A stretch of DNA of 63,702 nt, counting the filler, from Rhizaria sp. SCN 62-66 (lineage: Eukaryota), in NCBI GenBank assembly GCA_001724265.1. It is 4 parts of 4 records of this genome, joined end to end, with 100 filler letters (N's around TTAATTAATTAA, not from the genome) between each part and the next. Parts side by side here need not be neighbours in the genome. Positions count along the whole stretch, not along the records: positions 1 to 19,121 come from MEDY01000520.1; positions 19,222 to 37,697 come from MEDY01000521.1; positions 37,798 to 51,329 come from MEDY01000522.1; positions 51,430 to 63,702 come from MEDY01000535.1. One strand, given 5' to 3'. The notes under the pieces were generated by a model. It worked only from the letters and a program-made list of their open reading frames with translations. It searched no databases and had not been told where the DNA came from. Both the position numbers and the translations under genes were made by a program. Shown piece after piece: positions 2-61,200 of the stretch (position 1 is its first letter; each line of letters starts with the position of its first letter).

Positions 2-163
2 GTCGAGCCCAAGTTCCGTCTCGTCCGTCAGGAGCTTGCTGAGGCTGCTGGTGCCACCACCCGCAAGCTCCGCAAGGAGACCAAGAACAAGCGCAAGACC
101 CTCCGCGCCACCCAGAAGGACAAGGGAAAGAAGAAGCGCAGCAACGCCGGCGACGACGAGTAA
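2..163 (+). CDS. RPS24: 40S ribosomal protein S24 (eS24), C-terminal fragment, 5' truncated by window
   Basis: Frame 2 reads VEPKFRLVRQELAEAAGATTRKLRKETKNKRKTLRATQKDKGKKKRSNAGDDE then TAA (161-163), matching the eS24 EPKxRLxR...RKxRKExKNxxK C-terminal pattern. Not in the ORF track (no start codon in window). Confidence 0.85.
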   Translation, partial: VEPKFRLVRQELAEAAGATTRKLRKETKNKRKTLRATQKDKGKKKRSNAGDDE

Positions 164-1089
164 GCGCTCAACTTCCCCCACTTCAAAAACACTTCAACAA
201 CCTCATCACTCCCCACCTTCTACCGAGCGTAGCCGCCGCTCTCTCTCCACCGCTCTCTCGCGCTCCTTTCTCTCGATGCATGCCTCGTCTGTCTCTCTCT
301 TTCGCGCCCCGTCTCGTCTCTCCGCTGCACTGCCGCGCCCCTCTGGCGCGCGCGGTGTGTTGCTGAAGCGTCGAGCCGTGGCTATGCCGTCGCTCTGGCG
401 GCGGCGTGAGTCGGTCCGACTGATTTGCACCCGGTATAGGAGCAGCGTGAGAGTGTGAGAGTGTGTGACTCCGTTCATTCAATTGCTGCCATGAATACAA
501 AAAACAAACCTTAATATCTCTCTCCCTAGTCGCCTTTATTGTCCTCTACAACGTCCTCACGTACGCTGGCCCTGTGACTGCTTTGCCCTTACGGCTGCGA
601 GCTGGAATACAGAGGGTTCGTTACTCACACTTTAAAGCTGTTGTAGTACGGTATTGTGTCGTTGTTGCAGCAATTTGTTGCTACAAAGGTGTAATATAAT
701 GCGCATTTTACGTTGTTTTATTTTAAAAGTGGCATTTCGGGCTATTTTGACCTCTGTCTGCTCCGAGATATCACCCGGGCGTGTGCACTCCACTCATCTT
801 TTCTTCATCATGATCATCTCGCACTGTAAGACTTTCTTAGGCGATTATTTGTCCGTCATGCAACATCACTTCGTGACAACTTAGGCTATTGCACATCTTT
901 TTGTATCATTCCACTCACTCCCAGCGTATCTCCACCCGATTTTCTACGCCCTGCTCCTCCCCCTCAAGTCTTCTCTCTCTCGCGCCTCGCTTCCGCCCGC
1001 TCGCCTCCCACCGCTCTTCCCCCGCACTCCCGCCCGTCCCGCCCCGCCGCGCTCCTCCCCGCGCCCCCCGCGAGCGTGCCGCCCCCGCG

Positions 1090-2578
1090 ATGGACGCGTA
1101 CGACGTGGTCGACGTCGTCGGCGAAGGCACCTACGGCGTCGTGCACCGCGCCCGCCACCGCCACTCGGGGCTCCTCGTCGCCATCAAGCAGTTCAAAGAG
1201 GCCGACAACAACGAACAGGTCCGCAAAACGGCCATCCGTGAGATTCGCGTGCTCAAGCAGCTGCAGCACGACAACATTGTCTCGCTCTTCGACGTTTTCC
1301 GCGACAACGGCCGCCTCTACCTTGTGTTTGAGTACGTCGAGCGCGCGCTGCTGCAGGATCTCGAGCGATGCCCCAACGGACTCGACAAGGCCTTCGTGCG
1401 ACCCCTGCTGTACCAGCTCGTCTCGGCGCTCGACTTCATCCACACGCAGGGCTTTGTGCACCGCGACATCAAGCCCGAGAATGTGCTCCTCACCACGCAG
1501 GGCCTCGTCAAGCTTTGCGATTTCGGCTTCGCGCGCCCCTTGGCCGCGCACGCGGGGTCTAAGTACACAGACTACGTCGCCACGCGGTGGTACCGCGCGC
1601 CCGAGCTGCTGGTCGGCATCCCCGACTACGGCCCTGCCGTGGACGTCTGGGCCGTGGGCTGTCTGGCCGCAGAGCTCCTCACGGGGCAGCCCCTCTTCCC
1701 CGGTACGTTATCATGATACCGCAACTAAAACAAAAGATTTGAATGAATATATCGCATCTTATCTTTTTATTACTATATTATAATACGAATTAACACATTA
1801 TTTATTATTTTACTAATTTATATACTTTATTTTCATAATCCTTGTGCTCATATCTCCTCTTTTATGTTTCCACGTTCGTTTATATCTTTTCAGGCGAGAG
1901 CGACGCGGACCAAGTGCACCTGATCACCGCCACGCTGGGCGCGCTGCCGGAGCGTCTGGCGCGCGCTTTCTACGCGAACCCGCTGTACTCGGGCGCCGTG
2001 CTGCCCACCCCTGCGCTGGGCGAGCCCCTCTCGCGGCGTCTGCGCCAGACGAGCAAGTCGACTCTCGCCTTCGTCATCGCGTGTCTGCAGCTCGACCCCG
2101 CGCACCGGCCGACGTGCGCGCAGTTGCTCAAGCACCCGTTCTTCCACGCCGCGTTCGTGCAGTCGTTCGAGGGCGACTATAAGCTCGCCGCGGCCAAGGA
2201 CCGCGAGATGCGCGCTAAGTGCCGCGCCTCGTGTGCGCCACACCTCTTCGCTCAGCCCCCCGTGCAACAGCCCTCTCAGCAGCCCGCTCCCGTCACGTCT
2301 ACTGCTGCTGCTGGCGCGATCGCGCCGCCGCCGGGGCCGGTTGCGATGTCCACTGCCGGGCTTAACCAGCAGCAACAGCAGCAACAGCAACAGCAGATGC
2401 AGATGCAACAGCAGCAGCAATTGCGTCAGCAGCAGCAACAGATGCAATTACAGCAGCAACAGCAGCAACAGCAGCAGCAGATGCAGCAGCAGTTTGCTTC
2501 GATGGCGCTGTCTCAGTCACCACCGCAGTCGCAGCTCTCGTTCCAGCAGCAACAATTGCAGCAACAGCTCCAGCAACA

Positions 2579-2629
<51 letters not shown>

Positions 2630-3541
2630 GGGCAGGGCTAAGGCCGGTCAGCTGTCACCGACTGGCGCGGCGACACAGCAACAGCAGTTCGCCTACAGTA
2701 CCGTCCCCAACCAACAGCTGCCGCCGCAGCAGCAGCAGCAGGCTCAGCAGGCTCAGCAGCAGCAATACATGCCACAGCAGGGTTACGGCGTTGGCGCTGG
2801 CCACGTTGGCGGTGTAAGTAGCCTGAGTGTAAGGGGCCACTCGCTCAGCCCCGATCGTGACACTGCTCACAGTCACTCACACGCTCACATCAACAACAAT
2901 ATCAGCAACAACAATAACATGATGATGACAGCGACCAGTGCCAACGGCAACGCTTTCTACGACAGCAACAACAGCACTGGTGGCGTCAACCGGTTCGGCT
3001 CAGTGACCGTGAGCAACAACACCAGCAGCGGCGTGCATGGGAATGCGGCCAGTCAGGGCCAGTTCCACGCCCCGGCCCCCGGCTCTCTGTTCCGTGCCCC
3101 GCCCCCTCTCCAGCAGCAGCAACAACAGCAGCAGCAGTCTCTGCAGCAGCAGCAGCAGCTGCAGCAGGCGGGTTCTGTTGTCACTGGCTCTCAGCCCGGC
3201 GCTCTCAGCCAGCAGGGCCTGGGGCTGCCGCAGTCCTTCTGCCAGACCCAGGGCTTCACCGCACCAGGCACTGCAAACCCCGCGGGTCCCACGGGCCCCG
3301 CGGGTACCGCTAGCTTTGGCGTTAGTGGTGGCGGTCTGCGGTCGTCGGCCTCGGTGTCGCAGCTCGTCCTCACGTCGCTGCCGCACCCCAACTTCGGCGC
3401 CACCAACGGCGGCATCGGCAGCAACAACATCATGTACACGAGCCGGCCCTACAACGTCACCGCGGCGGGGAACAACGCCGGTCTCATGATCACCGGCACG
3501 GGCGCGATGAACGCTAACGCCACCACTGGCTCTGTCGGCGG

Positions 3542-3586
<45 letters not shown>

Positions 3587-4768
3587 GCAGCAGCCGCTGT
3601 CTTTGGCCCACTCGATGTCGCAGACGCGTGACCGCGAGCACTCCGTCCCCCGCGACCCCCTCCAGCAGCAGCAGCAGTTGTGGCAGCCTGGCTCGCAGCA
3701 CCCCCAGGGTGACCGTGAGCACGCGTTGCCGACGGCGCCCCGCGAGTACGGCCAGCTGGACCGGGCACTCACGCTCACGGTTCTTTCGGGCCGGCAGCGC
3801 CGCAAGCAGGCCGGCCAGCTCTACTCCGAGGTGCCACACATCACGCTATACCAGCAGCAGCAGCAGTTGCTGCAGCAACAACAGCAGCTGCAGCAGCAGC
3901 AGCAGGGTGGCGTGGGGGCCAACGCCAGCGGCGGCGCCACGGGCCACCACAGTCCGAGCCGTTTCACCGTGAACGCGGCCAGCATCAGCAGCAGCAACAC
4001 CGCGGGCGGCATGTTCAACCGGTCGGTCAGCGGCGCCGTCGTCCTCAACGCCGGCGGCAACAACGCTGCTGCTGGAACGGTGGGCGGCGACGCGCAGGCG
4101 CGGCTTAACTTGGAGGCGACCGGCGTCGCGTTTTTCAACCCCAACGTGAGCGCTACTACCGCCGCCGCCGCCGCCGCCGCCGCTGCCGCAGCTGGTAACG
4201 CCAACGGCTCCGCGTCCGTCGGCAACTCCCCCGTCCGTGGGCGGCCTCACTTCAGTCCCCAGCAGCCGCAGCCGCAGGGGACGACTGACCGCGAGCAGTC
4301 TCCTAACAGGAGCCTTTCGAGGCACCGCAAAAGACTAGCTCTCAACGGTAACAACAACACCACTAGCAGCTCTCGAGTCTCGTCGCAGTTGCCGTTGCAG
4401 CAACAGCAGCAGAACGGCGGCTTCACTGCGGCGAACGGCGTCGGCGCGAACAGCTTTGGCACCTCTGGAGGTCCTAACACCCAGGGCGCCGCGATTGGCA
4501 ACGCTGGCGGCGGCGGCGGCGGCGGCGGCAGCGGCAGCGGCAGCGGCGATTACGAGCTCGAGTGCGAGGTTGCTGAGGAGCTTGACACCAGTCTCACAGT
4601 CAGTGGCAGCAGCCGGAACAACATCGCCGTTGCCGTCGGGACGAATTCCAACAACATCAACAACAACAGCAGTGCAAAGGACGACGACGAGGACGAGGAC
4701 GAAGGACTTGATGAGCGCCTCGTGTGGCTGCAGCTGCAGCAGCAACAGCAGCAGCAGGAGCAGCAGCA

Positions 4769-4839
<71 letters not shown>

Positions 4840-5351
4840 AGCAGCTGCAGCAGCAGCAGCTGCAGGCTACGCAGCCTGGCGTCCCCAGCTACAGCGGCGA
4901 CGGCGATCTAGCGAGCTACGCAGGCGGCCTAACCTCCTACGCGCGCTCCGTTGCGGCAAACAACAACATGAGCGGCAGCATCGTGTACGACAACAGCGCC
5001 TTCAGCACCACGGCGGTTGGGCTCGGCAGCCTCAGCCCTTCGGCCTCGTACAATGCCAACGGCGCAAATGCCAACAACACGGGTAGTAACGGCATTAACA
5101 GCAGCGGTGGAGGCGTGAGTGTGAATGCCAACGCTGTTGGGGCTGTGAACGGCGGTGTGATTAGCAGTGACATTGAGGAGGAGTATTGCTTTGAGCAACA
5201 ACAGTCCTCCCACTCGCCGCCGCACTTGCAGTCACTGATGCAGTCGCAGTTAGCAGTCGCAGATAACGTGGCGCCGGCGATGACTGCGGGCGGCGCGAAT
5301 AGCAGTGAGGTTATTGAGGAGATCCCTACTGCGATTGCCGATGATTATTAA
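1090..5351 (+). CDS. Cyclin-dependent kinase-like (CDKL family) kinase with a ~1,000-aa Q/N/G/A-rich tail; 2 exons, 1356 aa
   Basis: Exons 1090-1702 and 1894-5351 (intron GTACGT...TTTCAG) join PLFP-G-ESDADQ. Motifs GEGTYGVV, VAIKQFKE, VRKTAIREIR, HRDIKPEN, DFGFAR and YTDYVATRWYRAPELLVG (TDY activation loop) are typical of CDKL. Stop TAA. Confidence 0.92.
2367..2627 (+). repeat. CAG/CAA polyglutamine tracts in the CDKL tail (further tracts at about 3111-3165, 3546-3593, 3852-3905 and 4731-4866)
   Basis: Long (CAG)n runs interspersed with CAA, read directly from the sequence. Confidence 0.95.
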
Positions 5352-5760
5352 GTAATAACACAAAACAAGTGTTGGTGATCTTACCAGAGCTCAAATAACT
5401 TAGGTTGTTTTGAGGAAAGAGAGGATTTAACGCGGTTGCTGCGCGTTTTACGAGTTTTATATAGATTTTTTAGATTTCAAGATTAATGTACTCCTGTTAA
5501 TACATCCATTAATTATTTTCGTGTTTGTTTCAGTTGACTTATCTCTTAGTTTATAGACTGGCAGCGCGTGTGTGGTCAGGCGTTTTTTTAGGAACCGCAG
5601 CCTCGTAATTGGGACAGCGAGCGAGCAAGTCGGCCGGCCGGCGCGGGCTGCGCGCACTCGCACGGTGGGACTCATTTTCCGTGGTTTAGTTATGATCTGG
5701 TGCTGCTTTAGACCATCGTCATAGCTACGTGCTTTCTTTTTAAAGTCGCTCGTACCCACC

Positions 5761-8535: not shown

Positions 8536-9140
8536 GTTAGATCTCTAGCTCACGGCGCCACCGCCGGACTCGCGGGGTAGGCTTAAGAGGGGGGGCTCGC
8601 GGGCAGTCTCTTCAGGAAAGGGTATTGAGGTGCGGTCTGTCTAAGCGAAAGAGAGAGACAAATGGAATAGCTTTCTTTGAGCTATCTGTTTTGTTGCTGT
8701 TTATTAAACAGCATCGACAGTGTCTGTCTGTTTAGAAGTATGACTTAAGAGGAGAAAGAGATTGTCGAGTCGCCCTTTGTGATGATGATAATGGTGATTT
8801 ACTAAAGCAAAGAAAATTAGCGTAAAACGCGTAAAACTAAAAGAAATATGTAACTAAAATAGCAAAGATATACGTATTTACAGTTAGTCGTATTGTAATA
8901 TTAGCCAATAATACAGAACAATGTTATCAAATGGATGTTGAGTTTGATCAATTCAAGTTCCGGGTTTTACTTGAATTTCGATGCTGTCATAAACAAATCT
9001 TCTTAATTATAGCACAATGAGAAAGTCGAGTTGCAAGCATTATTGATTAAATATTGGTAGCATAATTAAAATGTACTTTTATTTTTAATTATCAATCTCT
9101 AACTATATAAATCCATTCCAAAAAAATGCTTAAAGATGTT

Positions 9141-12994: not shown

Positions 12995-13046
<52 letters not shown>

Positions 13047-13672: not shown

Positions 13673-13760
<88 letters not shown>

Positions 13761-14919: not shown

Positions 14920-15951
14920 ATGCAAGCTATCATCGATGTCCGTCGCGGTGGCCAGGATGCAGCACAGCTGACTGTGCTTGTGACGAAGGATGGTGCTCTC
15001 TACACTGGCGCAGTTTCGAGTAAGCGTCACGGCGATGGCCGCTGCAAGTTCTCCGACGGCCGCGTGTACGAGGGCTCTTGGGTTGACGACGTGTGTCATG
15101 GCCATGGTAAGATGACATTTCCCTGCGGCAAAGTGTATGAGGGTGAGTGGGCTAACGGCATGCGCAGCTCTGGTAAGATGACCTACGCCAATGGCCCAGT
15201 ATTAGTGTACGACGGCCAATGGGCCAACAACAGTCCGCACGGTATCGGAAAGGTAACTTACGCTGGCGGTTACGTGTATGACGGCGAGTTGGCTCGCGGC
15301 AAGAGGTGCGGTCAAGGCAAGATGACCTTCCCTGATGGTGCGGTCTATTAATATGACGGCGCGTGGGCTGACAGGAGGTGCGGTCAAGGCAAGATGACCT
15401 ACGCCGACGGCGACGTTTACGAAGGCGAGTGGACTGACGGCGAGCATAACGGAGAAGGGACCATGTGGTACTACAACGGCAATGTGTACGAGGGCTCATG
15501 GCGATCCGGGTTGCGCGCGGGCCGGGGTAAGTGTACGTTTGCGAACGGCGGCTACTACAAAGGTCAGTGGGAGGATGATGCGATGTCCGGCAAGGGCAAG
15601 CGCGTATACGGCGATGGTAAGCGCATCTACAAAGGCATGTTCAGGCACGGTAAGCGCAATGGAAGGGGTGTGTGCCACTACGACGCGTCATACAAGTGGA
15701 CGTCGTTTGATGGCGTCTGGATTTCCGACGGGTGGAACGAGGGGAAGATCACGTACAATAATGGCGACACATATAACGGCAAGACTTGCGGCTTTCGGCG
15801 CCATGGAACAGGCACCCATAGGTGGGCCAACGGTGACACATATGAGGGAGAGTGGGTGAAAGACATGCGCGAAGGTCAGGGCACGTGCACTTACAGTGGC
15901 CGTGACATCATCAGTGGCATTTGGAAGGAGGACAAACTTGTGAACGTGTAA
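14920..15951 (+). CDS. MORN-repeat protein interrupted by an in-frame TAA at 15349-15351 (pseudogene, or rescued by a small intron)
   Basis: ORFs 14920-15351 and 15394-15951 are in the same frame. Repeated YxGxWxxGxxxGxGxxxYxxG units run across the TAA (DGAVY*YDGAW). Final stop TAA. Confidence 0.85.
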
Positions 15952-19121: not shown

Positions 19122-19221
19122 NNNNNNNNNNNNNNNNNNNNNNNNNNNNNNNNNNNNNNNNNNNNTTAATTAATTAANNNNNNNNNNNNNNNNNNNNNNN
19201 NNNNNNNNNNNNNNNNNNNNN
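19122..19221. other. Artificial contig spacer (N44-TTAATTAATTAA-N44)
   Basis: Six-frame stop linker flanked by Ns. Confidence 0.99.
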
Positions 19222-24532: not shown

Positions 24533-24566
<34 letters not shown>

Positions 24567-25646
24567 GCGCGCGCCGCTGCCGCTGCTGAGCCGCAGCCGT
24601 CGCCGATGGCCAGCTTTGCGCCCGCGCCCGCGGCCGTGGCCGTCATGACTGACGCAGACGCGGAGGCCGAGGCCGAGGCTGAGGCTGCCGAGGAAGAGCA
24701 GGACCAGGAGCAGATGGTCGACGACGACGACGACGACGACACCGCTGCCGCCGTTTTTGACGCCGAGGCTGAGGCTGAGGCTGAAGTTGAAGCTGAGGCT
24801 GAGACCGAGACTGAGGCTGAGGCTGAGGCCGAAACTGAGGCCGAGAATGAGGCCGAGGTCGCGCCTGTGTTCGACTCCGAGGACGAGGCGACCGAGCACG
24901 AGCACGACGACGAGGCCGGCCAAGCGCAAGAGCGGGAGCAGGAGCGTGAGCAGCGCGACGGCGACGACAACGATGATCACGAGCTTGAGGGTACAGCCGA
25001 GTCTGAGGCCGAGGCCGAGGCTGAGGCCATGTCCGACACCGAGCAGGAGCGCGAGCAGGACGATTCTGCTGATGCTAATGCTGATGTTGATGCTGAAGCT
25101 GATGCTGAAGCTGATGCTGATGCTGATGCTGATGGCGATGCTGATGCAGAGGCTGATGCAGAGGCTGAAGCTGAGGCTGAGGCTGAGGCAGAGGCTGAGG
25201 ATGCTGATGCCGAGGCTGCGGCGAGTTCTGACTACGAGAACGACGGCGACGGCGACGGCGACGGCCAGAACCATGACCAGGCCGGCAACAGCAACAGCAA
25301 CGACCACAACGCGACTGAGCACCAAGAGCAGGAGCAGCAGCAGGATGATGAGGTTGAGGCTGAGGACGACGGTCTACCTTAGGCCGAGGCCGAGGCCGAG
25401 GCCGACGCCGACGCCGACGCTGACGCCGACGCTGACGCCGACGCTGACGCTGACGCTGACGCTGACGCTGACGCTGACGCTGACGCTGACGACGTCCAGG
25501 AGCAGGAACATGAGCAGGACGGTGCTGCAGCTGTTGACGCTGATGCTGATGCCGTGGAGGCCGAGGCTGCGGAGGCCGAGGCTGATGACGAGGAGCAGGA
25601 GCAGGAGCGTGACGACGAACTCTACGTCGACGAGGACGCGGCATAA
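19222..25646 (+). CDS. TPR: Nuclear basket nucleoporin TPR/Mlp1/NUA-like coiled-coil protein, 5' truncated; in-frame TAG at 25380-25382, probable true stop TAA at 25644-25646
   Basis: Exons <19222-21517 and 21674-25646 (intron GTACGG...TTTAG). TPR-family motifs LVLFDSVDELQRRNQQLL, AQANYQRELRQHA, LSFLRRENDV, QITLIRESNVVLRND and WRQRNKHLLEAYQHVDPE, followed by an acidic low-complexity tail. Confidence 0.88.
25383..25490 (+). repeat. GCYGAG/GCYGAC hexamer tandem repeat (Ala-Glu/Ala-Asp) downstream of the TAG
   Basis: gccgag x3, then gccgac/gctgac units, in the same phase and dipeptide style as the repeats at 24763-24845 and 25068-25215 upstream of the TAG. Confidence 0.9.
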
Positions 25647-49163: not shown

Positions 49164-50539
49164 TTACTTCCAGAACTGGATGAGCGACATGTCCTTCTCG
49201 CTGTCCTTCTTCATCACCTTGGACACGGCCATCTCGAAGTCCTCCTGCGTGACGTGCAGACGGCGCTCGCGCAGCGCGAACATGCCGGCCTCCGTGCACA
49301 CCGCCTTGGTCTCGGCGCCGGACGCGCCGTTCATGCCCGCGGCAATTTTCTTGAGGTTGATTCCGCGCATGAGGTTCATCTTGCGTGAGTGGATCTTGAG
49401 GATGTGCAGACGCGACGCCTCGCCGGGGTTCGGGAACTCGATCTTGCGGTCGATGCGGCCCGGACGCAGCAGCGCGGGGTCCAGAATGTCGATGCGGTTC
49501 GTGCACATCAGCACCTTGATGTTCTGCGAGGGCTCGAAACCGTCGAGCTGGTTGAGCAGCTCGAGCATCGTGCGCTGCACTTCAGAGTCACCGCGGCCGC
49601 CGGAGCCGCGCGCGCCGCCGATCGAGTCGATCTCGTCCATGAAGATGATCGACGGCGAGTGCTGGCGCGCCATGACGAAGAGCTCGCGGACCATGCGCGA
49701 GCCCTCGCCGATGTACTTCTGCACCAGCTCGGAGCCGGAGACGCGGATGAAGCAGCAGTCGGTGTGGTGTGCCACAGCGCGCGCCAGGAGCGTCTTGCCC
49801 GTGCCGGGGGGCCCGTAGAGGAGCACGCCCTTGGGTTGGGAGATGCCGAGCGACTCGAACAGCTCGGGGTGCTTGATCGGCAGCTCGATGACCTCCTTGA
49901 TCTCCTTGATCTGCTGGTCGAGGCCGCCGACCATGTCGTAGGTGGCGTCGGGCACGGCCTCGACGCGCATCAGCGACACAAGCGGGTCCACGAGCGTGGG
50001 CAGAACCTTGTGGATCTCGTAGCTGTCGCTGCGCAGCGCGACGCGGGTGCCGGCCTTGAGTGTGGTCGAGTCGATATCCTCGTGGATCTTGCAGATGTAC
50101 TTGCCCTCGGGGGGAAGCTTGACAAGCGCAGTCGTCTTGGTCATCACCTTGGCGATCTCGCCGACGGTCGACGACGACTGGTGCAGCATCAAGATCTCGT
50201 TCTTCAGACGACGGACTAAATGAAGGCAAGACAACAATCAGAGAGGGGATTAGGAGGAAGGAGATGAGCAAAGAACATCCAGAGCGAGGGATTATGTGCG
50301 ATTCCAACCTCGCATCACACATGGTGAGGCTGCGAGTGTTTAGATATGCGTGTTTAAGCAAAGAAAAAAACAAGATGCGTTGCAAGATAGGCGAAATGGA
50401 GCGTACCGCGAGCGTTGAGCTCGTTGCGCTGAGCCTCGAGACGGCGGAGGTTCTCAGTGCGGTCGTGCACCTGAATCCTCAGACCATCAATCTTGTTCTG
50501 GTAGTAGGCGGCGACGCCTTGAACCGGAACCGTGTCCAT
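49164..50539 (-). CDS. RPT6: 26S proteasome AAA-ATPase RPT6/PSMC5; 2 exons, 394 aa
   Basis: Exons 50539-50407 and 50215-49164. [71 protein letters not shown] and C-terminal ..FWK. Stop TAA. Confidence 0.97.
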
Positions 50540-51329: not shown

Positions 51330-51429
51330 NNNNNNNNNNNNNNNNNNNNNNNNNNNNNNNNNNNNNNNNNNNNTTAATTAATTAANNNNNNNNNNNNNNN
51401 NNNNNNNNNNNNNNNNNNNNNNNNNNNNN
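51330..51429. other. Artificial contig spacer
   Basis: N44-TTAATTAATTAA-N44. Confidence 0.99.
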
Positions 51430-51525
51430 ATAAACCACGTAGTTTGATAACTTCTACGAAAGTGCGCCAAAGTCGCAAAAAAAGCGCGAATTCGCGTTTT
51501 TTAGTTGACGCTACATAGGGGTTAC
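51430..51525. repeat. Putative repeat or transposon terminus at a contig start, related to 37601-37697
   Basis: See the partner feature; includes the palindrome CGCGAATTCGCG at 51485-51496. Confidence 0.4.
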
Positions 51526-52264
51526 ATAGCCGAGCCGAAACAGGAGAGAGGTAAGGGGGGCCGTGCCGCTTTCTTTTGTGCCGTCGTTCCGCCGTTAAAC
51601 TCCGCGACTGCGTTCGGTATTCATCGTCGACAATTCATTATACTGGTATTTTTGAGGCACTCTTCACCTTTGTTGTTGTCGTTGTGCTGTGATGACGACA
51701 TGATGGTTGTAGGTTCTGTCGGTCTCGCACCTCTTCTCTCCGCGACGTACAATACTTTCGGCCGTAAATACGCTCTCCATAAGCTCTAAATTTCGAACTT
51801 GACACTTTTGTTTTGATTTTCACATAGTAATATATATTCCCACACTTTTGAAAAGTGCTGCACTATCATATTATGATCATACGCGTCAATCTTTCATCCT
51901 TTCCTATCTTCTTGCCCTTCTCTGACAGTCACGTCGCTCTCTGATCCCTGCCTCTAGAGTTGATCAACAAGAGCGTCGACACTCAGGGACACTCCATTCC
52001 GCAACTTTGTGATCTTTGTTAGTTTCCCACCGAACATCTCATCAGCTCGACAACAGCAAAACACATAACACCTTTGAAGAAGAGCGTTTTGCTCGCTTTG
52101 CTCACTTTCACTCAGCACACGCATTTGCTCAAGCTAGCGCGATGACTCTGACGGGCAGCTCTCTCTGTGCACCGTCGGGATGCTATCTGGTTATGGGAGC
52201 ATCTGCACCATTACACGTTCCCCACGCTTATCGCACCCGCAGCAACAGCAGCAGGAACTGGAGC

Positions 52265-55200
52265 ATGCTTTCATTCCTTCGGCCCCTCGCCCTGGCCATC
52301 TTGTTCCTCGCCTCACTCACGACTGCGATCAACACGTTCACGATGTCTAGTGGGGCCGCCGGCTTCTACGCCGGCTCCTCCGTGACGTTTCGCGGTTATT
52401 TGCAGACGTTGAGCTCTGGTGATACGAGCCTCCAGCTTGCTGCCAAGGATTCTGGATCAAACGTCGTTATTGCCACGAACTCGATGCGCAACTGCCGCGT
52501 CGAAACGACCGGCGTCGCTGTCAGCATCGTGAATATTTCCCTTGTCACCGATGGTGTTGCTTTGAATCTGAATGCAAAAGCCAACGTGACCAACGTCGTG
52601 GTGTCTTGCCAGATCACACTGCAGCCGACGCTGTCCGCAAGCTATAATCTCGTCGTAAACGTTGTCACCATCTTTGGCGGCGCCCCGATAGGCACCACCA
52701 TGGTCTCATTTGACGTGATCGGCCCGCATTTTCTGGGTGCCGCACTAGGCACCACTGCGTACTATGCGAACCAATGGCTCGGCGGCTCAGACTTCATCAA
52801 CATCCCGTTTTTATACTCAGGGAGTGTGAGGCGCTCGGCGACCTTGTTGGGCACGTCGTACTTCCAGTTGAAGATGAGCGCGAGCTCCACATTTCTGTTC
52901 AACGATACGAACATCCAGTGCTATCTTGACTATCGGCCTCTGATCAACAATGTCATCATGCTGGGTCTCCCCAGTATCCTGGATGCTGGACTCAGTGCTC
53001 AAATGTACATCCCAATCGATCATTTCCCCAGCGACCCCCCTGATCTGTACCCCGGCACGTTCATCTGCTCGGTGCCGTGGCGCTCGACGTCGGAGACCAC
53101 GGTGCCGAACACTGCGTTTACGCTGACGGCCGGGATCAACTTCAGCGGCTACAATGCCGTGCTACCCACGCTAACTCTCGACACCGTTGCGTCGGACACC
53201 AAGGACTGGCAAGTGTTGTCCAATTTCTTTTCGCCGTCCTGGACCATTACAAGCTACGGCATCCAGGGCGCCGGCAGCGGATACATCCAACTGGGCCTAA
53301 AGCGCATCAGCAGAAGCGAGATGTACCGCGGCGCCTAGGGCACCTTCTGCACCGTCAGTGCGCGACCTGCCAGCGCCGAAGCGGTCGGCGACGGCGGGTC
53401 CGTCACCGCGTCCTTGGTGCCGCCCGTCGCGCCCTCGATGATCATGTCCATGGGCTACTGTCACATTCCAATCGAGAGCATCCACATCCACGGCGTCGGC
53501 TTCACCTCCGCTATCGAGATCGTCGTGTCGATGTACTTCGCGTCGCTGCCCGCTGAGCTCTCGGGCAACACCACGCTAGGTTTTATCGACGGGTGGCTCT
53601 CGCGAACTTACACGCTCAACGTGGTACGCTCTATTTACACGGTGTATCTCCTCACTTGAACAAGAAAGAGTTGTCAGACTGTCTTTGGACACTCTTCCAG
53701 CACCCACCCAGACAATATCGTACCTTATTTCACCTCTATTTTCTCATGTCTTTTCTGTATATGTCTCATTATGACTTGTCTCAAACCATTGCCTATTAAT
53801 GTGTTGCACTTGCATTTACATCATGCAACAAACGCATCTTTCAACCCCAGCCGCTTACCGTGAAAGCGTTAGAAACGTCTACGGCCGTCGCCTCCATCTC
53901 GTCCTTCACGCCCCGCGGCTTCTACCAGCCGCACCGTGCGTCGTACCCGGGGGCCGCTGCGGTGCCGCTCGGCAGTCCGCTCCAGGACTGGTACTCGCTG
54001 CCGCCGCAGCTGCCGCTGTCCGTCTCATCCGCGCGCCCGACCCCACGCCCGCGCCCGCGCTATCTGCAGGCCACGGCGTCGGCCGCTGCCGCGGGCCCCA
54101 AGCTCGAGAACCTGTCCCCGTCGACAACAGGCCAGTACTCGTTCTTTTTTGGTGGCATCGCACTGCAGACGTACCCGTTCGCGTCGCCCGCCTTGTACCC
54201 ATGGGCGGAACCCGCGCTGCTGTCGGACCTGTGGATGGTCGACGCGCTGGCCAACACCACGACGCTGCTGCACGGCGACCCCGCGCAGACGGGCCTGCCT
54301 GCCGTCATCGGTACGCTGACTCCAGGTGTGTACGCGTCGACACTGCGGCCCGCGGCGCGGCACTCGGCCTCGCTTGCATACGACGCGTTCACGCGCACGA
54401 TTTGGCTTTTTGGCGGTGCGTATTACCCCATCATTGCCAATAACGCGGACAAACAGAAGTTTTTTGACGACTTGTGGTCGTTCAGTCTGGACAAGCGGCA
54501 GTGGGCGTATTGGCGCGGCATCGCGGAGCCGGTGCCGAGGCCCGAGATCTCACAGATCCTGAGCAACACAGCGCCGCCCCTGGCTACGGCCGCGGCGGCG
54601 ATGGCCGCGCACGAAGGGTATATTGTCATTTATGGTGGTACGTTCACTTGTTGCAACAAAGCTACAACAAAACCAAGCTGCATACCGATGACCCCAATTA
54701 GATTCCGGAATTATAATATTATAATATTATTGTTCGATCACTTCCGTTTCCCGCGTTATAATAGAAAAAATATCTCATGTCATATCCTTATTTTTTTTGT
54801 GTGTGGGTTGTGGTTGAACATCCTGTTTCGCCTACTTGCGCACTCTACAGGTTACATCTTGACATCCAAGCTTAACGCGTTGGGCTACAACCCCGTCATC
54901 GAGACCCCCGACGTCTACCTGGCCGACAACACCAATGGCACCAACATCACTTGGAAGCGCGTCTACGACATCATGACGTACACGGACGGCACGCACGCGT
55001 ACCCCGGCGTGGCCAACACCGAGCCCTGCGCGCGCGCCTACGCCGCGCTGGTGTGGGAGACGCATAATGCGGCCCCGGTCACTACGCTCGTCATGTACGG
55101 CGGCACGCTCTCGGCGCTGCTGCCGTCCGCGCCCTTGGTGACTGCGAGCACGACACTGCACACCGCGCCCTCGCCCGAGAACGACTCGGGCGTGCTGGCG

Positions 55201-58200
55201 GGGCTCTGGCGGCTCACCATCACGCTGCCCGGTACGGCTGTGTGGGAGCGCCTCGACGCGCTGCCGCTGGCGCCGACCGCGGCCGAGCGCGGGCAGCCGC
55301 GCCTGGTGTTCCCGTCCACGTCCAGCCTCGTATCTGCGCCCGGCGGCCGCGTGTTCCACGCCATGAACATCGCGGCCAACGGAGACATCTTCCTCTACGG
55401 CGGCCGTGGCCACGGCGCCGGCGCGTACGTGCGCCCCGATGCCGCGGAGACGATGGAGGTCATGCTCAACGCGCAGCCCGCCGCGGCGCCGTTCACGCTG
55501 CCGCTAGCGGGCCGGTTCGACATCTCGTCTGTGACGGAGCGCGGCGCGGTGTCGCTGCACGCGTTCCTGTACACGGTGGACGAGCTCGCGGCCGCGGGGC
55601 TGCCGGAGAAGCTGAACCTGCAGTCGCTCGACGTCATGGTGAAGCTGAATGAAGAGTCGCAGCTTGGCCTGACTGGAACATGGCAACCGGCCAGTCGTTT
55701 CCGTGTCCGGACGTGTCTGGCAGCGACAAGTCTGAATAATTTCTCCATTATGTCCGCTTCTTATCTTGATATCGCTGAGACCGCTATGCTTTCTCAGCCC
55801 GGCTTGCTGATCGATCCTGCTAAGTGGGCTCCGAAAACGTACATGGCCATCAACACTCCGTACATGAAGGATATGAATCTTGACGCTGCGTCTGTCATCG
55901 CGACGCATTCAAGTACCAACGTTATTTTCTTCATGTCTATTGAGTATGTCTTCGAAGGCTTTCCGACCGCTTCACAGTCAGTGGGTTTCGGACTTGAAAT
56001 GCGAGATAGCTCGGACACTCGCTCCATGTCCATCATCAAGGACGCAGTCTCCGTTAGTGGCCAGGGTTACCTCAATTTCGAAGTCTACACCGCGCGGCCC
56101 GTGCTGCTACTGCGGTCCCCGCTGCCCAGCCACCCGCTGACGCAGCCCCCCGTGACGATCTCGCGCCTCGCCGCGCCGCAGCTCGACGACCTGTGGCAGT
56201 TCTCGCGCGCAACCAACACCTGGCGTCTGCTGCGTGGCTTCTCGGGCCCCATCACGCGCAGCGGCTCCGCTGTCAACCGCGTCGGCTCGCCGGCGATCCC
56301 GCTGGCGATCAATGACTCCTTCTGGCCCGGCGCGCGCCTCGGCGCCACGCTGTCGATCCCGACGTCGAGCACGAAGCAGGCGCAGGTCGCGTCCGACACG
56401 TCGCTCTTCCTCCGCGGCGGCTGGACCGCGGGCTCGACCCCCGCGGCGGAGCGGGCCTTCTTCGCTGACCCCGCCGTGGAGCGCCACCTCGAGGACTGCG
56501 AGCTGCTCGCTGTGCACGACGACCTGTGGAGCATCGATATCGTCACAAACGCTGCGAACATCACGTGCATCGACAGTACGGCGTACGATAACACTGTCTG
56601 CCATCCGTCGACGGCCAACAACCTGACCGCGCCCTTCACCCCGTGGCTGCCGCAGGGCGACGTCGTCTACGGCGAAGAAGCCCGCGCCGCGCTGTCCTTC
56701 TCGAACGCTAACACGTGTCCGTCAGGGTTCGGCGCCAACTACTGCAACAACAAGGGTACCTGCGTCGCCGGCGGCGGCTCCGCCTTCTGCCACTGCAACA
56801 GCTACACACAGGGCGCGCAGTGCACGAGCGGCAACATCGCTGAGGTCAAAGCCAAGTTCCAGCTCAGCCACGGCTCCGTGCTGCTCAAGGGCGCGACCAG
56901 TCCGACCGTGCTGCCTTTCGCCGCCGTCGCTCACCGGCCCGGCACCGGCGAGGTCTACAGCTTCGGCGGCGCCGTGATCAACTCGTCGCTCGCCACTGCG
57001 TTCGCTAGCGCGGCCTTTACGCGCGTTGATCTCGTCGCCAACACTGTGACGGAGATCCCGCGCACGGCGGGCCACGCCGAGTCGCACGAGTACTCGCAGC
57101 TTCTGGTCGGCTCGTTTTTTTCCGGTGAGGTGTATGTGTCGCCTACGGCACCGCCGCCGTCCGTCGAGTCTCACGCTTGGTTTTCGCCAGATGGAGCCAA
57201 TATGTATTTGTACGCAGAAAGCTTCGTTGCACCGCCCGGTCTGTGGGTGTACACTGTTGCTCTTAAGGTATGCAATCGACTCACATTTTTTTCACTTTGA
57301 CCACACATGTTTATTGATCTCCATACTATACTATCGATTGTATGTCCCACTTTTCTTTTGTTTTAATGTGATTACAACTCACTTTCATTCTGCTTCTTAA
57401 TTATTATTATTTTCATTTTGTTTCGTATCACAGTCCTGGGAGACGGCAGGTTTCGACCATCTCAGCTACAACTCATCGTATCCGTTTGGTTTCGAGTATT
57501 ATTCTGGCGTTTCTGGCGATTTCGGCCAAAAAGGCCCCTCTTATCATCCTAGCGCACGCCAGGGCTTCGCCAAGGCGTCCTTCTCTCGCTCAACTTCTGG
57601 TGATAACGACTCGGTGTTCTGCATGTATTCTGGAGCAAAGATGTATTGGTCTGGGAGTTTCATTGAATCGTATAACACTGATCTTTGGTGTCTTTACACA
57701 AAGACGAATACCTCGTCCGGAGTTCATGACGCACAGTACGTTGATTTTGTAAAATAATGAAACAGTGTGAGCTCTTAATGTAATATCTCAAAGCACCGTG
57801 TCAAATTTCGCAATCCACTCACTAATCTTTACCTCTCTGATTCCTCTTCTGTATCGTGTTACATAGATGGGCGCTCATGTCTGGCTCCTTCAACTTGACC
57901 GCTAATGATCACCTGCCTTCTGCCTCTGCCCCCGGCGCCTTCAGTAGTTCTAACAGCCCCGGCGCCCGCCTCGGTGCCAGCATGACGTTTTCTCACGACG
58001 GCCGCTACCTCTACCTCTTCGGTGGCTCTCTTCGCGTCCAGCCAGGCAGCGCGATCCCGCAGCCCGCCCTCATGGCCGACCTGTGGGTGTTCTCTTTCTC
58101 CAAGATGCAGTGGGCGTACCTCTCCGGCCCGCTCACCTGGGCTGTGCAGGGCAGCGCGCACGCGCGCAGCACCGTCGCCACAGCCGGCGCGCCGTCGCGG

Positions 58201-61200
58201 CTGCAGGCGCCCGGCGCGCGCGCCTATGCCAGTATGACGGCCGACGCCGACGGGCTCGTGTATGTCGGCTACGGCATGCGGCTGCCGCTGACCACAGGGA
58301 CGACGATCAACGATGGGACCAGCGCGGACTCGCTCGACGAGTCGGCTCTCGAGGGCACGGTGTTCGCTGTCTACGCGGAGCAGCTGCACAATAGCACGTG
58401 GCTTCCGTCGGCCACGTCCATCACGGCGCTAGTCACTGCGCCGACGTCGCACAGCATCGGCAGCGAGGTCGCGGCCTGGGCGTGGTTGGTCAACCCGAAC
58501 ACCGTCGTCATCACCCCGTACCGCAGCTTCACGTGGGCGTCCACCAGCGACGACGCGCGCCTTGGCGCCTCGTTCCTCATGCTGCCCAACTCTCTTGGCA
58601 CCGCCAGCGAGACGTTCGCCAGCCCCTCCGCAGTCCTCCTGCGCACGGGCGGCCTGACGTACGCCACGGGCGCGATTATCGTTGGTTTGACGCCGGTGTA
58701 CCCGTTCTACTCGCACGGGAAGCTGACGTCCGGCGCCGACCAGTCAGCGCTCGTGGCGCTGACGACTCCTTGCGCTCGCAACCCCTGCGTCAACGGCGGC
58801 GTGTGCGGCATCCAGCCGGTATCTCAAACGCCGGTGACGCTCTTGGTCGGTCTGACCTCAAAGAGCTACCGCTGCACGTGCCCCGCCGGGTACTTTGGCG
58901 AGCACTGCCAGACGGCGCGCGCCCAGTTCGCCCCGCCCACGGCCCCGGCGGTGAAGGCCCTCAAGTGCGTCGCCACGGGTACCAATCAGACCAACTCGCT
59001 CTCGGCGCCCTGCGACTGCGGCACCGTGCGCTCGTCTGGCACGCTCTGCTCGCCGCTGACCGTGCGCGCGCTGGTGGACAACCCGTACGGGTCGGCGCAG
59101 CCGGGCACGGTGCCGCGCATATTCGCCGCCAGCGCCACGACCCACAGTCTCTCGGTCACGGCGGCCGCGACGCTGGGGCTGCCCGCGGGCTCGACCGTGA
59201 CCTTCGTCGCCGGCGGCGCGAGCAACGTGAACATGCTCGGCATGACGGCCATCGTTGTCGCCAACTCGCTCTCCGCGCGCACCAGCGTCACGCTCGTCGC
59301 GGAGAAGACCACGGATGCGTCCACGCCAGTGCTGGAGACCAACTTTACTGCCGGCACGGTGGCCTACACGGGGCAGCACATGGGCGCCTCGCTGGTATAC
59401 TTCCCGCAGGGCAACTGCTTGTTCCTGTTCGGTGGCATCGTCAGCAACGGCGGCACAAACGTACGTACCTTTATATCATATTTTTCGCGTCATATGTTCT
59501 CCTGGAATGCATGTGTTGACTTAGAACATTGTACCATGTATAATTTATATGTATTGTCACAGCCAATGATATAGTCGATGATTGTTCAAATACTAACCCC
59601 TCTTTCATTCATCAATTGTTCGCTCCCATTGCTGCATAAACAATTTTTAATCCCTTCTCAATGACATGGGGGCAGCGAGAGTACTACGAGCGTCTCTGGC
59701 GCATCCCTGTCACGGCATCGTCGCTCAACATCCCGCCCGAGCTCGTCCCTGGCCGCGGCACAGACGCGAAGTTGAACCCGATCATCTCTGACCCCGTCCA
59801 AATTGTCTCCGTGGGCACGGTGGGCCACCAACGCCGCGCATCGGCCACGGTCTACCCGGCCGGCTTCCCCGGCTCCCGTGCCTTCCACAGCTCCGTGATT
59901 GTCACGCTGGGCGGCGGCGCCGAGAGCTGGGTTTACACCTACGGCGGCCTCATTCCCTCGTCCACCACTGACCTGGCCTTCCGCGGCGATCTGTGGCGCT
60001 ACCGGGCCACCGTCTCAGGCACAGTCACCTGGCAGTATGTCGGCTGCTCGACGGGTCTCAACTTCGTCCCGGATACGGCTGTCACGGTTGGCAGCGCGGT
60101 GCCGATGGCTGACTACTGCCCGTCGGGCCGCGCGCGCGCGTCACTCGTGGCGGTTGGCGAGACGCTTGTTCTCAGCGGCGGCGTCGGTTTCTTCGGCGCA
60201 CTCGACGACATTTGGAGCTTCAGTCTGCTGACGGAGATGTGGACTCTGATCGCCGGCAAGAGCCGCAAGTTCGCGCCTTTGACGTATGACCTCGCCACTC
60301 CCCCCGTCTTCACTGGTTCGGTGATCACGCGCACGATGGGCTCGCGTTACGACCACAGCTGCGACGTCACACCCGGCAGCACCACGGTGTACTGCTTCGG
60401 CGGCATGACGGCGCGCGGCGTGTACGTCGACATCTACCGGGCTGTGGCACCCGCTGTGCTGTCGAACGCGTACTTTTACAACGCGACGCAGCCGACGCAG
60501 CTGGCGTACCCGTTCCGCGACATCAAGGGCGACGGCACGACGGGCAGCAAGGTGGCGAGCTATCTGGCGAGGGCGCTGCTCTAGCAGGCGGGGCTGCTGA
60601 CGTACATGTCCGTGCGCGCCGTCACGTTCTACCTTACACGGCCCGTGGACGCGTCTGTGTCCGTGTTCGTTAAGCTCAGGGTCGTTCCCGTGACCGCGAC
60701 GCCGACAGGGAAGCTGACGGACACATCGACTGGCACGCTGATGGTCAAAACCCTGAAGTACGCTGACTTTGGCACAACGGGCACCGAGTTCACGATTGTC
60801 TTAGGCGCCGCTGTCACACTCTTACCCTCAGCTGTCGGTGTAATCATCGTCCTCGAAGTCGTCGTGATGAACAAAGACGATTTGCCAGGGTTTGGCAGCG
60901 GTGGGCGCGTTGAGGAGTCGCTTGCCTACGGTGTTTCGTCCGCCGCCGTCGGGGCCGAGGTATTCACTCTTTTTAGCGCGAGCGCGAATCGGACCAAAAC
61001 TACACACTTCACAACCACTTCCGATAGTGGGGACGTGTATGAGACCTATTTGATTCCGCAAATGCGTTTCCGTGCTTCCCCCGCGGCCGGCGGCCTTACC
61101 ATGGGCCACGCCGCGTCGTCGGACATGTTCAGCATCGACACGGCCAATGGCGAGATTGCACCCCTCTTCGCGCCGCCTGACGGCGCTGCCCCGTCCGCGG

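What the first reader, a model, noticed from the sequence alone, without database searches (positions are those of the whole stretch)
161..60584. Candidate variant nuclear genetic code: UAA-only termination with UAG read as a rare sense codon
Seen: RPS24, CDKL, eIF2-gamma, the 9141 gene, MORN, Sec5, C2H2, the zinc-cluster gene, PTC7, cathepsin B, TPP2 and RPT6 all end in TAA (12 of 12), and TPR does too if its TAG is read through. No confident gene ends in TAG or TGA, which is unexpected for such GC-rich coding DNA. TAG occurs three times in frame, on two contigs, each followed by same-frame coding-like sequence (25380, 53336, 60582), with no shared downstream readthrough motif (TAG-GCC, TAG-GGC, TAG-CAG). 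Established: decoupling UAG from UAA is very rare in nuclear codes (Iotanema spirale UAG=Gln; an uncultured rhizarian UAG=Leu). Inference: UAG is reassigned or efficiently read through here. Caveats: only three codons; none lies in the hundreds of polyQ CAG codons (a weak argument against Gln); the amino acid cannot be assigned from this window; and one in-frame TAA also exists (MORN).
Basis: partly seen in the sequence, partly recalled or inferred. Interest (0 to 1): 0.92.

Follow-up and report, generated by a model that had tools for sequence, protein, structure and literature searches.

The report
Possible UAG read-through, UAA-only stops
An uncultured, GC-rich wastewater protist ends every recognisable gene with TAA and carries three real in-frame TAG codons after which the proteins clearly continue, so UAG may not stop translation here, though this one window cannot prove it.

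Summary
The window is four metagenome contigs of one GC-rich, intron-bearing eukaryote. All 13 recognisable gene ends are TAA. The three in-frame TAGs (25380, 53336, 60582) are real: the same sequence appears in other runs and assemblies, and none lies in an intron.

- Two of the three TAGs lie in one huge Kelch/EGF/REJ receptor gene.
- The TAA at 47650 is intron read-in. TPP2 probably ends at TAA 48396.
- The MORN in-frame TAA is also real, on 7 contigs.

New evidence:
- Homologues at about 56% identity align without a gap across both receptor TAGs, and are as similar after them as before.
- Relatives' copies of the gene also break mid-exon, with no intron-type tail.

Evidence against a settled reassignment:
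- Only 2 of about 15 genes hold a TAG. In established UAG-sense lineages the figure is at least 78% of genes.
- The aligned residues are variable (P/P/T and R/T).
- TAG is the expected product of about 66% of random nonsense mutations.
- The window holds no tRNA, and eRF1 is not in it.

Odds: UAG translated, about 0.5; nonsense alleles under a standard code with extreme TAA preference, about 0.3.

The parts
25380..25382 (+). In-frame TAG near the C-terminus of the nucleoprotein TPR gene
   Evidence: Sequence. Pfam TPR and TPR_MLP1_2 hits on the ORFs 19224-21542 and 21606-25379. Intron at 21518-21674.
25383..25646 (+). Same-frame acidic tail of 87 codons ending in TAA 25644-25646, at the GC-rich/AT-rich boundary
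   Evidence: Codon score of 0.463 per codon, as high as that of the best genes in the window. Sequence. About half of it is a GAC/GCY repeat, so an open frame alone says little.
52265..53623 (+). Exon 1 of a giant receptor gene with a signal peptide; it holds the TAG at 53336
   Evidence: Translation. GTACGC splice donor at 53624 and an acceptor ending at 53850. Homologues P0124, P0125 and P0130.
53336..53338 (+). In-frame TAG number 1 of the receptor gene
   Evidence: It aligns to P, P and T in three homologues, inside the block YRG.x..CTVSARPA, with no gap. The ORF that ends at this TAG (P0123) was seen on 6 contigs. DNA contigs of another run are identical here.
53851..57267 (+). Exon 2 (Kelch repeats), joined to exon 1 in phase 0
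   Evidence: Pfam Kelch hits. P0130 reads across the junction without an intron. Sequence.
57434..57735 (+). Exon 3
   Evidence: Acceptor ...acag and donor GTACGT.
57867..59460 (+). Exon 4 (Kelch, EGF)
   Evidence: Pfam. Donor GTACGT at 59461, in phase 0. The frame is open throughout.
59676..61573 (+). Exon 5 (Kelch); it holds the TAG at 60582
   Evidence: Homologues P0121 (637 aa) and P0122 (561 aa) at 56-57% identity over the whole exon. Donor GTACGT at 61574.
60582..60584 (+). In-frame TAG number 2 of the receptor gene
   Evidence: It aligns to R and T between LL and QAGLL, with no gap. L001 and the run contigs are identical here. The flanking ORFs P0138 and P0139 were seen on 7 and 4 contigs. 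The 99%-identical variant P0140 starts at the same Met. A contig from an RNA library spans 60442-60692.
61623..63702 (+). Later exons of the same gene (REJ domain), running off the contig end
   Evidence: Pfam REJ, E 6.9e-20. The TGA at 61620 lies in the intron that starts at 61574.
15349..15351 (+). In-frame TAA inside a MORN repeat. It is part of a 6-nt insertion (TAT TAA) relative to the neighbouring repeat units.
   Evidence: Sequence. MORN repeats on both sides. The ORF that ends here (P0141) was seen on 7 contigs.
49164..49166 (-). Example of a homology-verified TAA terminator (RPT6)
   Evidence: RPT6 domains by Pfam. Homologues cover 98% of the query to the C-terminus. Stop context.
161..163 (+). 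TAA terminator of ribosomal protein eS24
   Evidence: The peptide matches eS24 residues 89-133 of 136.

Best explanation
In this organism, and probably in its close relatives, UAG is not an effective stop codon. Ribosomes translate it, through a suppressor or near-cognate tRNA combined with weak eRF1 recognition of UAG, and UAA is the only terminator in use. UAG is still a rare codon, about 3 in 15,000, and is found only at variable positions of long, probably weakly expressed genes. That would make this an early or inefficient stage rather than a settled reassignment.

Shown: the TAGs are real, they are not in introns, conserved coding sequence continues in frame after them, and every recognisable gene ends in TAA.

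Inferred: that the TAGs are translated, the mechanism (tRNA and eRF1), and that the mid-exon ORF breaks in relatives are also UAG.
For: 1. Homologues at 56-57% identity align across both receptor-gene TAGs with exactly one residue opposite the TAG.

2. Identity after the TAG equals identity before it. P0121: 169 of 290 before, 176 of 325 after. P0122: 138 of 229 before, 180 of 326 after. P0124: 98 of 190 before, 61 of 94 after.

3. The gene is otherwise intact over at least 3,400 codons. It has five phased exons with GTAYGY...AG introns, no frameshift and no other in-frame stop. One strain variant differs by an in-frame 12-nt deletion.

4. The TAGs recur elsewhere. DNA contigs of another run are identical over both sites. 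L001 is identical over 2,925 nt. The ORFs cut at the TAGs were seen on 6 and 7 contigs. A 99%-identical variant starts at the same Met after the TAG.

5. All 13 of 13 gene ends are TAA although GC3 is 0.78.

6. The TPR tail after the TAG has full coding bias and ends in TAA exactly at the compositional boundary.

7. In relatives, four ORFs of the same gene stop mid-exon with homology running to their last residue: P0133 ...TYTLN, P0127 ...TLFP, P0135 ...NSSNV and P0131 ...FGAP. For P0135 the next ORF, P0134, has the same longest contig (31,294 nt) and resumes about 15 codons later. Five known intron read-ins carry tails of 2 to about 70 residues. The end of P0133 cannot be produced by a GT donor in any phase.

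8. There is precedent. UAA-dominated termination accompanies UAG reassignment in the rhizarian exLh and in phyllopharyngean ciliates (PMC5304391 passages; PMC11687900 section 10). The best named RPT6 matches are rhizarians.
Against: - Only 2 of about 15 genes hold a TAG, and two of the three TAGs are in one gene.
- None of the conserved genes examined holds one (RPT6, TPP2, eIF2-gamma, eS24, cathepsin B, the CDKL kinase domain). In established UAG-sense lineages 78-91% of genes hold an internal UAG, and exLh has 384 in 71 genes.
- The residues opposite the TAGs are P, P, T and R, T. They are not conserved and point to neither Leu nor Gln.
- With this codon usage 66% of random nonsense mutations give TAG, so three of three has p of about 0.29.
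- A reproducible in-frame TAA in the MORN gene shows that premature stops of another kind exist in this genome.
- The window holds no tRNA. eRF1 is not in the window and no genome is held.
- The identity of the stop codon at the relatives' ORF ends is unknown, because their DNA could not be fetched.
- Two of the four tail-less ends could come from atypical donors (GTAAGT or GTGAGT in phase 2; GTATGA in phase 0). One (P0131) may be a contig end.
- The few strain differences shown in the exons (positions 57110, 57491, 57595, 57599) fall at codon positions 2, 1, 3 and 1. That shows no sign of purifying selection, but with four sites it means little.
Confidence: 0.5

Rival explanations
1. The code is standard, with an extreme preference for UAA as terminator, as reported for the rhizarian Guttulinopsis. 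The in-frame TAGs are ordinary nonsense mutations. The giant receptor gene is a young pseudogene or null allele with two hits. TPR has recently lost its 87-residue acidic tail, or truly ends at the TAG. MORN is truncated by a TAA-bearing insertion.
For: - In Guttulinopsis vulgaris all but one transcript end in UAA without any reassignment (PMC5304391 passage).
- TAG is the expected outcome of 66% of nonsense mutations here.
- Two of the three TAGs share one gene, as expected once a gene is dead.
- The MORN TAA shows that premature stops occur in this genome.
- No housekeeping gene holds a TAG.
- The positions hit are variable ones.
- All the assemblies that hold the TAGs are near-identical, so this may be one clone.
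Against: - Three of about 15 genes with fixed premature stops is far above what free-living protists show.
- The receptor gene has no frameshift, no lost splice site and undiminished conservation downstream.
- The relatives' orthologues also seem to be interrupted while keeping ORFs of 561-637 aa in later exons. That would need independent inactivation in several lineages.
- TPR is normally an essential single-copy gene.
Confidence: 0.3
2. The code is ambiguous: both UAG and UAA can be read as sense inside genes, and UAA terminates only near the true mRNA end, as in Blastocrithidia or Condylostoma. On this reading the MORN TAA is translated as well.
For: - In-frame TAG:TAA is 3:1, close to the G:A ratio at third positions of two-fold codons here: CAG:CAA 604:139 and GAG:GAA 589:95.
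- The MORN TAA is reproducible on 7 contigs, with MORN repeats on both sides.
- Every genuine stop is TAA, as in Blastocrithidia (PMC12153298 abstract passage).
Against: - There is only one in-frame TAA, and it is part of a 6-nt AT-only insertion rather than a codon substitution.
- There is no in-frame TGA.
- Known ambiguous codes occur in AT-rich genomes with abundant in-frame stops.
- No enrichment of in-frame TAA after the genuine stops is visible in 13 genes.
Confidence: 0.08
3. The TAGs are repaired in the mRNA by A-to-I editing (UAG to UIG, read as Trp), as in the sexual stage of some filamentous fungi. That precedent is recalled and was not looked up in any call.
For: - Such editing is specific for UAG, which would explain why only TAG is found in conserved coding sequence.
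- The RNA-library run shows one A>G place somewhere on contig 4, and its contig over 60442-60692 has two unlisted differences. The places were not shown.
Against: - No editing event was seen.
- The organism groups with Rhizaria rather than fungi in the RPT6 matches.
- W is not among the residues aligned to the TAGs.
- There is no significant local RNA structure after the TAGs.
Confidence: 0.05
4. The TAGs are an artefact: assembly or sequencing errors, or TAGs lying in unrecognised introns.
For: Coverage in the runs is low, with a word depth of about 5-8.
Against: - The sequence is identical in another run and in a separate assembly, and the cut ORFs were seen on 6-7 contigs from three sources.
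- Homologues align gap-free across both sites, so no intron can remove them.
- The real introns here are AT-rich, 130-230 nt long and start with GTAYGY. The surroundings of the TAGs are GC-rich.
Confidence: 0.02

Closest known systems
Rhizarian exLh (Sainouroidea), UAG = Leu (Panek et al. 2017, PMC5304391; passages read)
   Same: A non-ciliate nuclear genome in which UAG occurs in frame while UAA terminates. There is no UAG among the genuine stops. It is of probable rhizarian affinity, like this window's organism.
   Different: exLh has 384 in-frame UAG in 71 genes, including proteasome genes, at conserved Leu positions, and it also uses UGA (15 of 71 stops). Here there are 3 TAG in about 15,000 codons, none in RPT6, none at a conserved Leu, and no TGA stop in 13 genes.
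Phyllopharyngean ciliates with UAG = Leu or Gln (McGowan et al. 2024, PMC11687900; abstract and section 10 read)
   Same: UAG is decoupled from UAA. UAA terminates 92-98% of genes after the change. The lineages were discovered in metagenome-assembled genomes.
   Different: These are ciliates. 78-91% of their genes hold an internal UAG, and suppressor tRNAs were found. Here the density is about a hundred times lower and no tRNA is available.
Iotanema spirale, UAG = Gln (PMC5304391)
   Same: UAG is sense while UAA and UGA are stops.
   Different: It is a fornicate with many UAG at Gln positions. Here none of the several hundred Gln codons in the polyQ tracts is TAG.
Guttulinopsis vulgaris (Sainouroidea): near-exclusive UAA termination with the canonical code (PMC5304391 passage)
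   Same: Almost all genes end in UAA without proof of reassignment. This is the null model for the 13 of 13 TAA seen here.
   Different: No confirmed in-frame stops are reported there. Here three reproducible TAGs interrupt conserved coding sequence.
Blastocrithidia nonstop and relatives (PMC12153298; passages read)
   Same: UAA is the only terminator. In-frame reassigned codons are avoided in highly expressed genes.
   Different: All three stops are reassigned, the genome is AT-rich, and in-frame stops are very frequent. Here the coding DNA is GC-rich and there is no in-frame TGA.

Membership tests
Nuclear code with UAG as sense and UAA as stop (exLh, Iotanema, phyllopharyngean type) | In-frame UAG in many genes, including conserved housekeeping genes | tested here: not met
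   TAG occurs in 2 of about 15 genes. There is none in RPT6, TPP2, eIF2-gamma, eS24, cathepsin B or the kinase domain. Known lineages show it in 78-91% of genes.
Nuclear code with UAG as sense and UAA as stop (exLh, Iotanema, phyllopharyngean type) | Homologous coding sequence continues in frame across the UAG | tested here: met
   Gap-free alignments across the TAGs at 53336 and 60582, with equal identity on both sides. For the TAG at 25380 the support is compositional only.
Nuclear code with UAG as sense and UAA as stop (exLh, Iotanema, phyllopharyngean type) | UAG is never a genuine terminator | tested here: met
   0 of 13 recognisable gene ends are TAG if TPR is read through to 25644. The sample is small.
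Nuclear code with UAG as sense and UAA as stop (exLh, Iotanema, phyllopharyngean type) | UAG aligns preferentially with one conserved amino acid | tested here: inconclusive
   The residues opposite are P, P, T and R, T, from two sites at variable positions.
Nuclear code with UAG as sense and UAA as stop (exLh, Iotanema, phyllopharyngean type) | A suppressor tRNA with a CUA anticodon | tested here: inconclusive
   ARAGORN and Rfam find no tRNA of any kind in the 63.7 kb. No genome is held.
Nuclear code with UAG as sense and UAA as stop (exLh, Iotanema, phyllopharyngean type) | eRF1 N-domain changes that weaken UAG recognition | not testable with these tools
   eRF1 is not in the window and the rest of the genome could not be reached.
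Ambiguous stop/sense codes (Condylostoma, Blastocrithidia) | The terminator codon itself also occurs in frame as sense in many genes | tested here: inconclusive
   There is one in-frame TAA (MORN 15349), reproducible on 7 contigs but part of a 6-nt insertion.
Pseudogene or nonsense allele | Accompanying frameshifts, lost splice sites or decayed conservation downstream of the stop | tested here: not met
   Five exons join in phase with GT...AG introns. There is no frameshift or other stop, and identity downstream equals identity upstream. A very recent inactivation would look the same.
Programmed stop-codon read-through | A shared 3' motif (for example UAG-CARYYA) or a stable downstream RNA structure | tested here: not met
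   The contexts are GCC-GAG, GGC-ACC and CAG-GCG. Folding z-scores of the 120 nt after each TAG are +4.17, -1.24 and +1.14.

The most novel reading that the evidence does not exclude
A clade of uncultured, GC-rich, probably rhizarian wastewater protists is caught at an early stage of stop-codon capture. UAG and UGA have vanished from gene ends, UAA is the sole terminator, and UAG is re-entering coding sequence as a rare, tolerated sense codon, so far only at unconstrained positions of long genes. The relatives may already carry more of them. This would be a living intermediate of a nuclear code change, and in a GC-rich genome where AT mutation pressure cannot be the driver.
Probability: 0.35. 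Interest if true: 0.85.

Novelty: new member of a known kind. Interest (0 to 1): 0.62.

Why it matters
Known nuclear lineages that read UAG as sense while keeping UAA as a stop are few: one rhizarian, one fornicate and three ciliate events. All of them are settled reassignments.

If this organism translates UAG at only about 0.02% of codons while already terminating exclusively at UAA, it would show what the start of a reassignment looks like. It would also test whether loss of a stop codon from gene ends comes before its capture. And it would do so in GC-rich coding DNA, where the usual AT-pressure explanation fails.

There is a practical side too. Gene callers cut such genes into pieces, as the public ORF sets already do for this gene.

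Tried and rejected
- Whole genome: none is held.
- tRNA and Rfam scans of the window found nothing.
- The metagenome-contig scan with exon 5 gave only one locus. L001 is identical to window 58369-61293, so it added no relatives' DNA.
- The genome-contig scan with alignment A1 found no relative. With RPT6 it returned 80 loci at 40-50% identity whose record titles name archaeal or bacterial MAGs, and none from this eukaryote.
- The viral-contig scan with A1 found nothing.
- The third homologue search (exon 1) returned only the window's own ORF, so no strain variant that reads through the TAG could be looked for.
- Exact look-ups of the MORN downstream ORF (from ATG 15394) and of the TPR ORF (from ATG 22074) were not in the collection, probably because the gene caller chose other starts. 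The TPR TAG is therefore confirmed only by the window itself.
- Reads. The divergent strain X4 covers the TAG at 53336, and the contig from the RNA library covers the TAG at 60582. The letters at those places were among the 157 differences not shown, so neither conservation nor editing could be read. The same RNA library also holds a contig that spans the intron 57268-57433 unspliced, so its contigs may be pre-mRNA or DNA. X2 and X3 give identical figures throughout and count as one data set.
- RNA structure after the TAGs is not significant.
- A possible TGA-terminated gene on the minus strand at 36961 was rejected as a counter-example. Codon scores favour the plus strand over 36975-37330, and that gene runs off the contig. 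It stays unresolved.
- Rosculus as the source organism was rejected: its genome is 37.7% GC (PMC10770858 passages).
- A literature search for a wastewater protist with a changed code found nothing relevant (terms: eukaryotic MAGs, genetic code, stop codon, activated sludge, protist). The search with Cercozoa, UAG and stop codon reassignment listed no cercozoan case after 2017.
- Supplementary tables of the papers cited were not opened. They may hold per-gene stop-codon counts that would sharpen the comparison.


Full report
WHAT THE WINDOW IS

The 63,702 bases are four contigs joined by artificial spacers of 44 N, TTAATTAATTAA and 44 N: 1-19121, 19222-37697, 37798-51329 and 51430-63702. No whole genome is held.

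The DNA is found almost complete in bioreactor and wastewater metagenome runs: three rows hold 0.91-0.98 of the sampled words, from two studies.

Exons are GC-rich. GC3 is 0.78 over about 15,200 codons of approximate gene models. Introns and spacers are AT-rich. The introns I traced are 130-230 nt long, start with GTAYGY and end in YAG.

The best named matches of the RPT6 protein are rhizarians at 81-82% identity: Lapot gusevi, Amorphochlora and Plasmodiophora. An unnamed relative reaches 96%. This is a hint of rhizarian affinity, not a placement. Rosculus, the only sainouroid with a genome, has 37.7% GC and is not the source (PMC10770858 passages).

THE GENE ENDS

- eS24, with the peptide matching residues 89-133 of 136
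- a CDKL-type kinase, eIF2-gamma, a MORN protein, TPP2 and RPT6
- a Sec5-like protein, TPR and cathepsin B
- a C2H2 protein, a Zn-cluster protein and a weak PP2C-like protein

All 13 of 13 recognisable ends are TAA.

Two corrections. The TAA at 47650 directly follows CAG|GTATGT and is intron read-in. The strongly coding ORF 47757-48398, probably the last TPP2 exon, ends in TAA as well; PDB sequences did not confirm that assignment. The ORF ends in TGA or TAG on contig 4 (57300, 59574, 61622) all lie in introns.

One partial gene at the end of contig 2 could end in TGA at 36961 if it lies on the minus strand. Codon scores favour the plus strand, so it is not a usable counter-example.

With equal stop usage, 13 of 13 TAA has p of about 6e-7. 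At the UAA:UGA ratio of exLh (56:15) it has p of about 0.05. The TAA bias is therefore real. It is not unique, though: in Guttulinopsis all but one transcript end in UAA under a canonical code (PMC5304391 passage).

THE THREE TAGs

Contig 4 is a single giant gene. It has a signal peptide, Kelch repeats, an EGF domain and a REJ domain. Its exons are 52265-53623, 53851-57267, 57434-57735, 57867-59460, 59676-61573 and further ones to the contig end, all joined in phase. The TAGs at 53336 and 60582 therefore share one gene.

Codon bias continues in the same frame after both.

Homologues from other metagenome assemblies settle that coding continues. P0121 and P0122 (56-57% identity) run through the TAG at 60582, reading LL-R-QAGLL and LL-T-QAGLL. 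P0124, P0125 and P0130 run through the TAG at 53336, reading YRGA-P-GTFCTVSARPA and similar. There is no gap, so no intron can remove either TAG. Identity after the TAG is as high as before it.

The TPR TAG at 25380 is followed by 87 codons of acidic tail. Their codon score is as high as that of the best genes. The tail ends in TAA 25644, exactly where the AT-rich DNA begins. Half of this tail is a GAC/GCY repeat, so the evidence is compositional only.

ARE THEY REAL?

DNA contigs of another run are identical over 52030-53755 and 59367-61307. X2 and X3 give the same figures throughout and count as one data set.

A separately assembled contig, L001, is identical over 58369-61293.

The ORF that ends at the TAG at 53336 was seen on 6 contigs. 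The ORFs before and after the TAG at 60582 were seen on 7 and 4 contigs, from three sources. A variant that is 244 of 246 identical starts at the same Met just after the TAG, as expected if it has the stop too.

A contig from a poly(A) RNA library spans 60442-60692 without a joint. The same library also holds an unspliced intron, so this is weak evidence of expression.

The TPR TAG could not be checked in other data.

RELATIVES

The public ORF sets also cut the relatives' copies of exon 1 into pieces. Four ORFs end with homology running to their last residue: P0133 ...TYTLN, P0127 ...TLFP, P0135 ...NSSNV and P0131 ...FGAP. For P0135 the next ORF, P0134, has the same longest contig (31,294 nt) and resumes about 15 codons later, at the first ATG.

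The five intron read-ins I could recognise carry tails of 2, 8, 11, about 15 and about 70 residues.

The end of P0133 cannot come from a GT donor in any phase. P0127 and P0135 would need donors unlike the GTAYGY seen in this clade. P0131 may be a contig end.

The simplest reading is that the orthologues of at least one relative, and probably three, also hold in-frame stops while keeping later exons as ORFs of 561-637 aa. Which stop codon it is remains unknown, because their DNA could not be fetched.

WHAT SPEAKS AGAINST A CHANGED CODE

- Density is very low: 3 TAG in about 15,000 codons, in 2 of about 15 genes, and none in the conserved housekeeping genes. exLh has 384 in 71 genes. In UAG-sense ciliates 78-91% of genes hold one.
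- The residues opposite the TAGs (P, P, T; R, T) identify no amino acid.
- Given this codon usage, 66% of random nonsense mutations would create TAG, so a TAG-only pattern is not informative.
- The MORN gene holds a reproducible in-frame TAA, seen on 7 contigs. It looks like a 6-nt insertion (TAT TAA) into an otherwise regular repeat. Premature stops of another kind therefore do occur here.
- My scan for stops flanked on both sides by same-frame coding signal listed 27 candidates out of 433 stops examined. I dropped by eye those that lie antisense to a better-scoring ORF or in the introns traced above, and one weak site at 882 that I did not follow. The four sites already known remain. They are three TAG, one TAA and no TGA.
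- There is no read-through motif and no significant RNA structure after the TAGs.

WEIGHING

Under a standard code, three of about 15 genes would carry fixed premature stops. One of them would have two hits but no frameshift and undiminished conservation. The same gene would also have to be hit independently in its relatives.

Under translation of UAG, one cause explains the three TAGs, the absence of TAG terminators and probably the relatives' broken ORFs. The MORN TAA stays a separate event, and the very low density has to be read as an early or inefficient state.

My odds:
- translation of UAG: about 0.5
- nonsense alleles under a standard code with extreme TAA preference: about 0.3
- an ambiguous UAR code: about 0.08
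- mRNA editing of UAG: about 0.05
- artefact: about 0.02

COMPARISON AND NOVELTY

UAG as sense with UAA as terminator is a known kind. Its members are exLh, Iotanema and three phyllopharyngean events.

If true, this would be a further, non-ciliate member. It would be unusual for its GC-rich coding DNA, for the absence of UGA terminators in the sample, and for a density about a hundred times lower than in the settled cases.

The decisive data exist publicly: long contigs of this organism and of its relatives, and DNA and RNA reads.

Noticed in passing
19122-19221, 37698-37797, 51330-51429: The window is four contigs joined by spacers of 44 N, TTAATTAATTAA and 44 N. Features must not be read across them.
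   Followed up: yes
15340-15357: The in-frame TAA of the MORN gene is part of a 6-nt AT-only insertion (TAT TAA) into a recently duplicated 69-nt repeat unit. It could be a transposon-excision footprint. The ORF cut by it was seen on 7 contigs.
   Followed up: partly
52357 and 61616: A strain about 4.5% divergent (run X4) has a 12-nt in-frame deletion in exon 1 and a 4-nt deletion inside the intron that starts at 61574. Frame is kept in the exon and not in the intron.
   Followed up: no
36949-37697: A partial gene at the end of contig 2 with ambiguous strand. Plus-strand codon scores are best over 36975-37330, and a minus-strand frame is best over 37335-37470. There is a weak Fy-3 hit on the minus strand, and a possible frame switch near 37470.
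   Followed up: partly
1839-5351 and 9141-14000: Very long low-complexity tails (polyQ, polyN, polyA, GA-type repeats) in the CDKL kinase and in an unnamed 1,619-codon ORF. They make up a large share of the 'coding' codons counted.
   Followed up: no
56902-57465: A contig from the poly(A) RNA library keeps the intron 57268-57433 and continues upstream into sequence unlike the window. Contigs from the RNA library are therefore not clean mature mRNA.
   Followed up: no
L001 and public ORF sets (P0123, P0126, P0138, P0139): Public gene calls made with the bacterial code split this eukaryotic gene at introns and at the TAGs. Such fragments are how the relatives' breaks became visible.
   Followed up: yes
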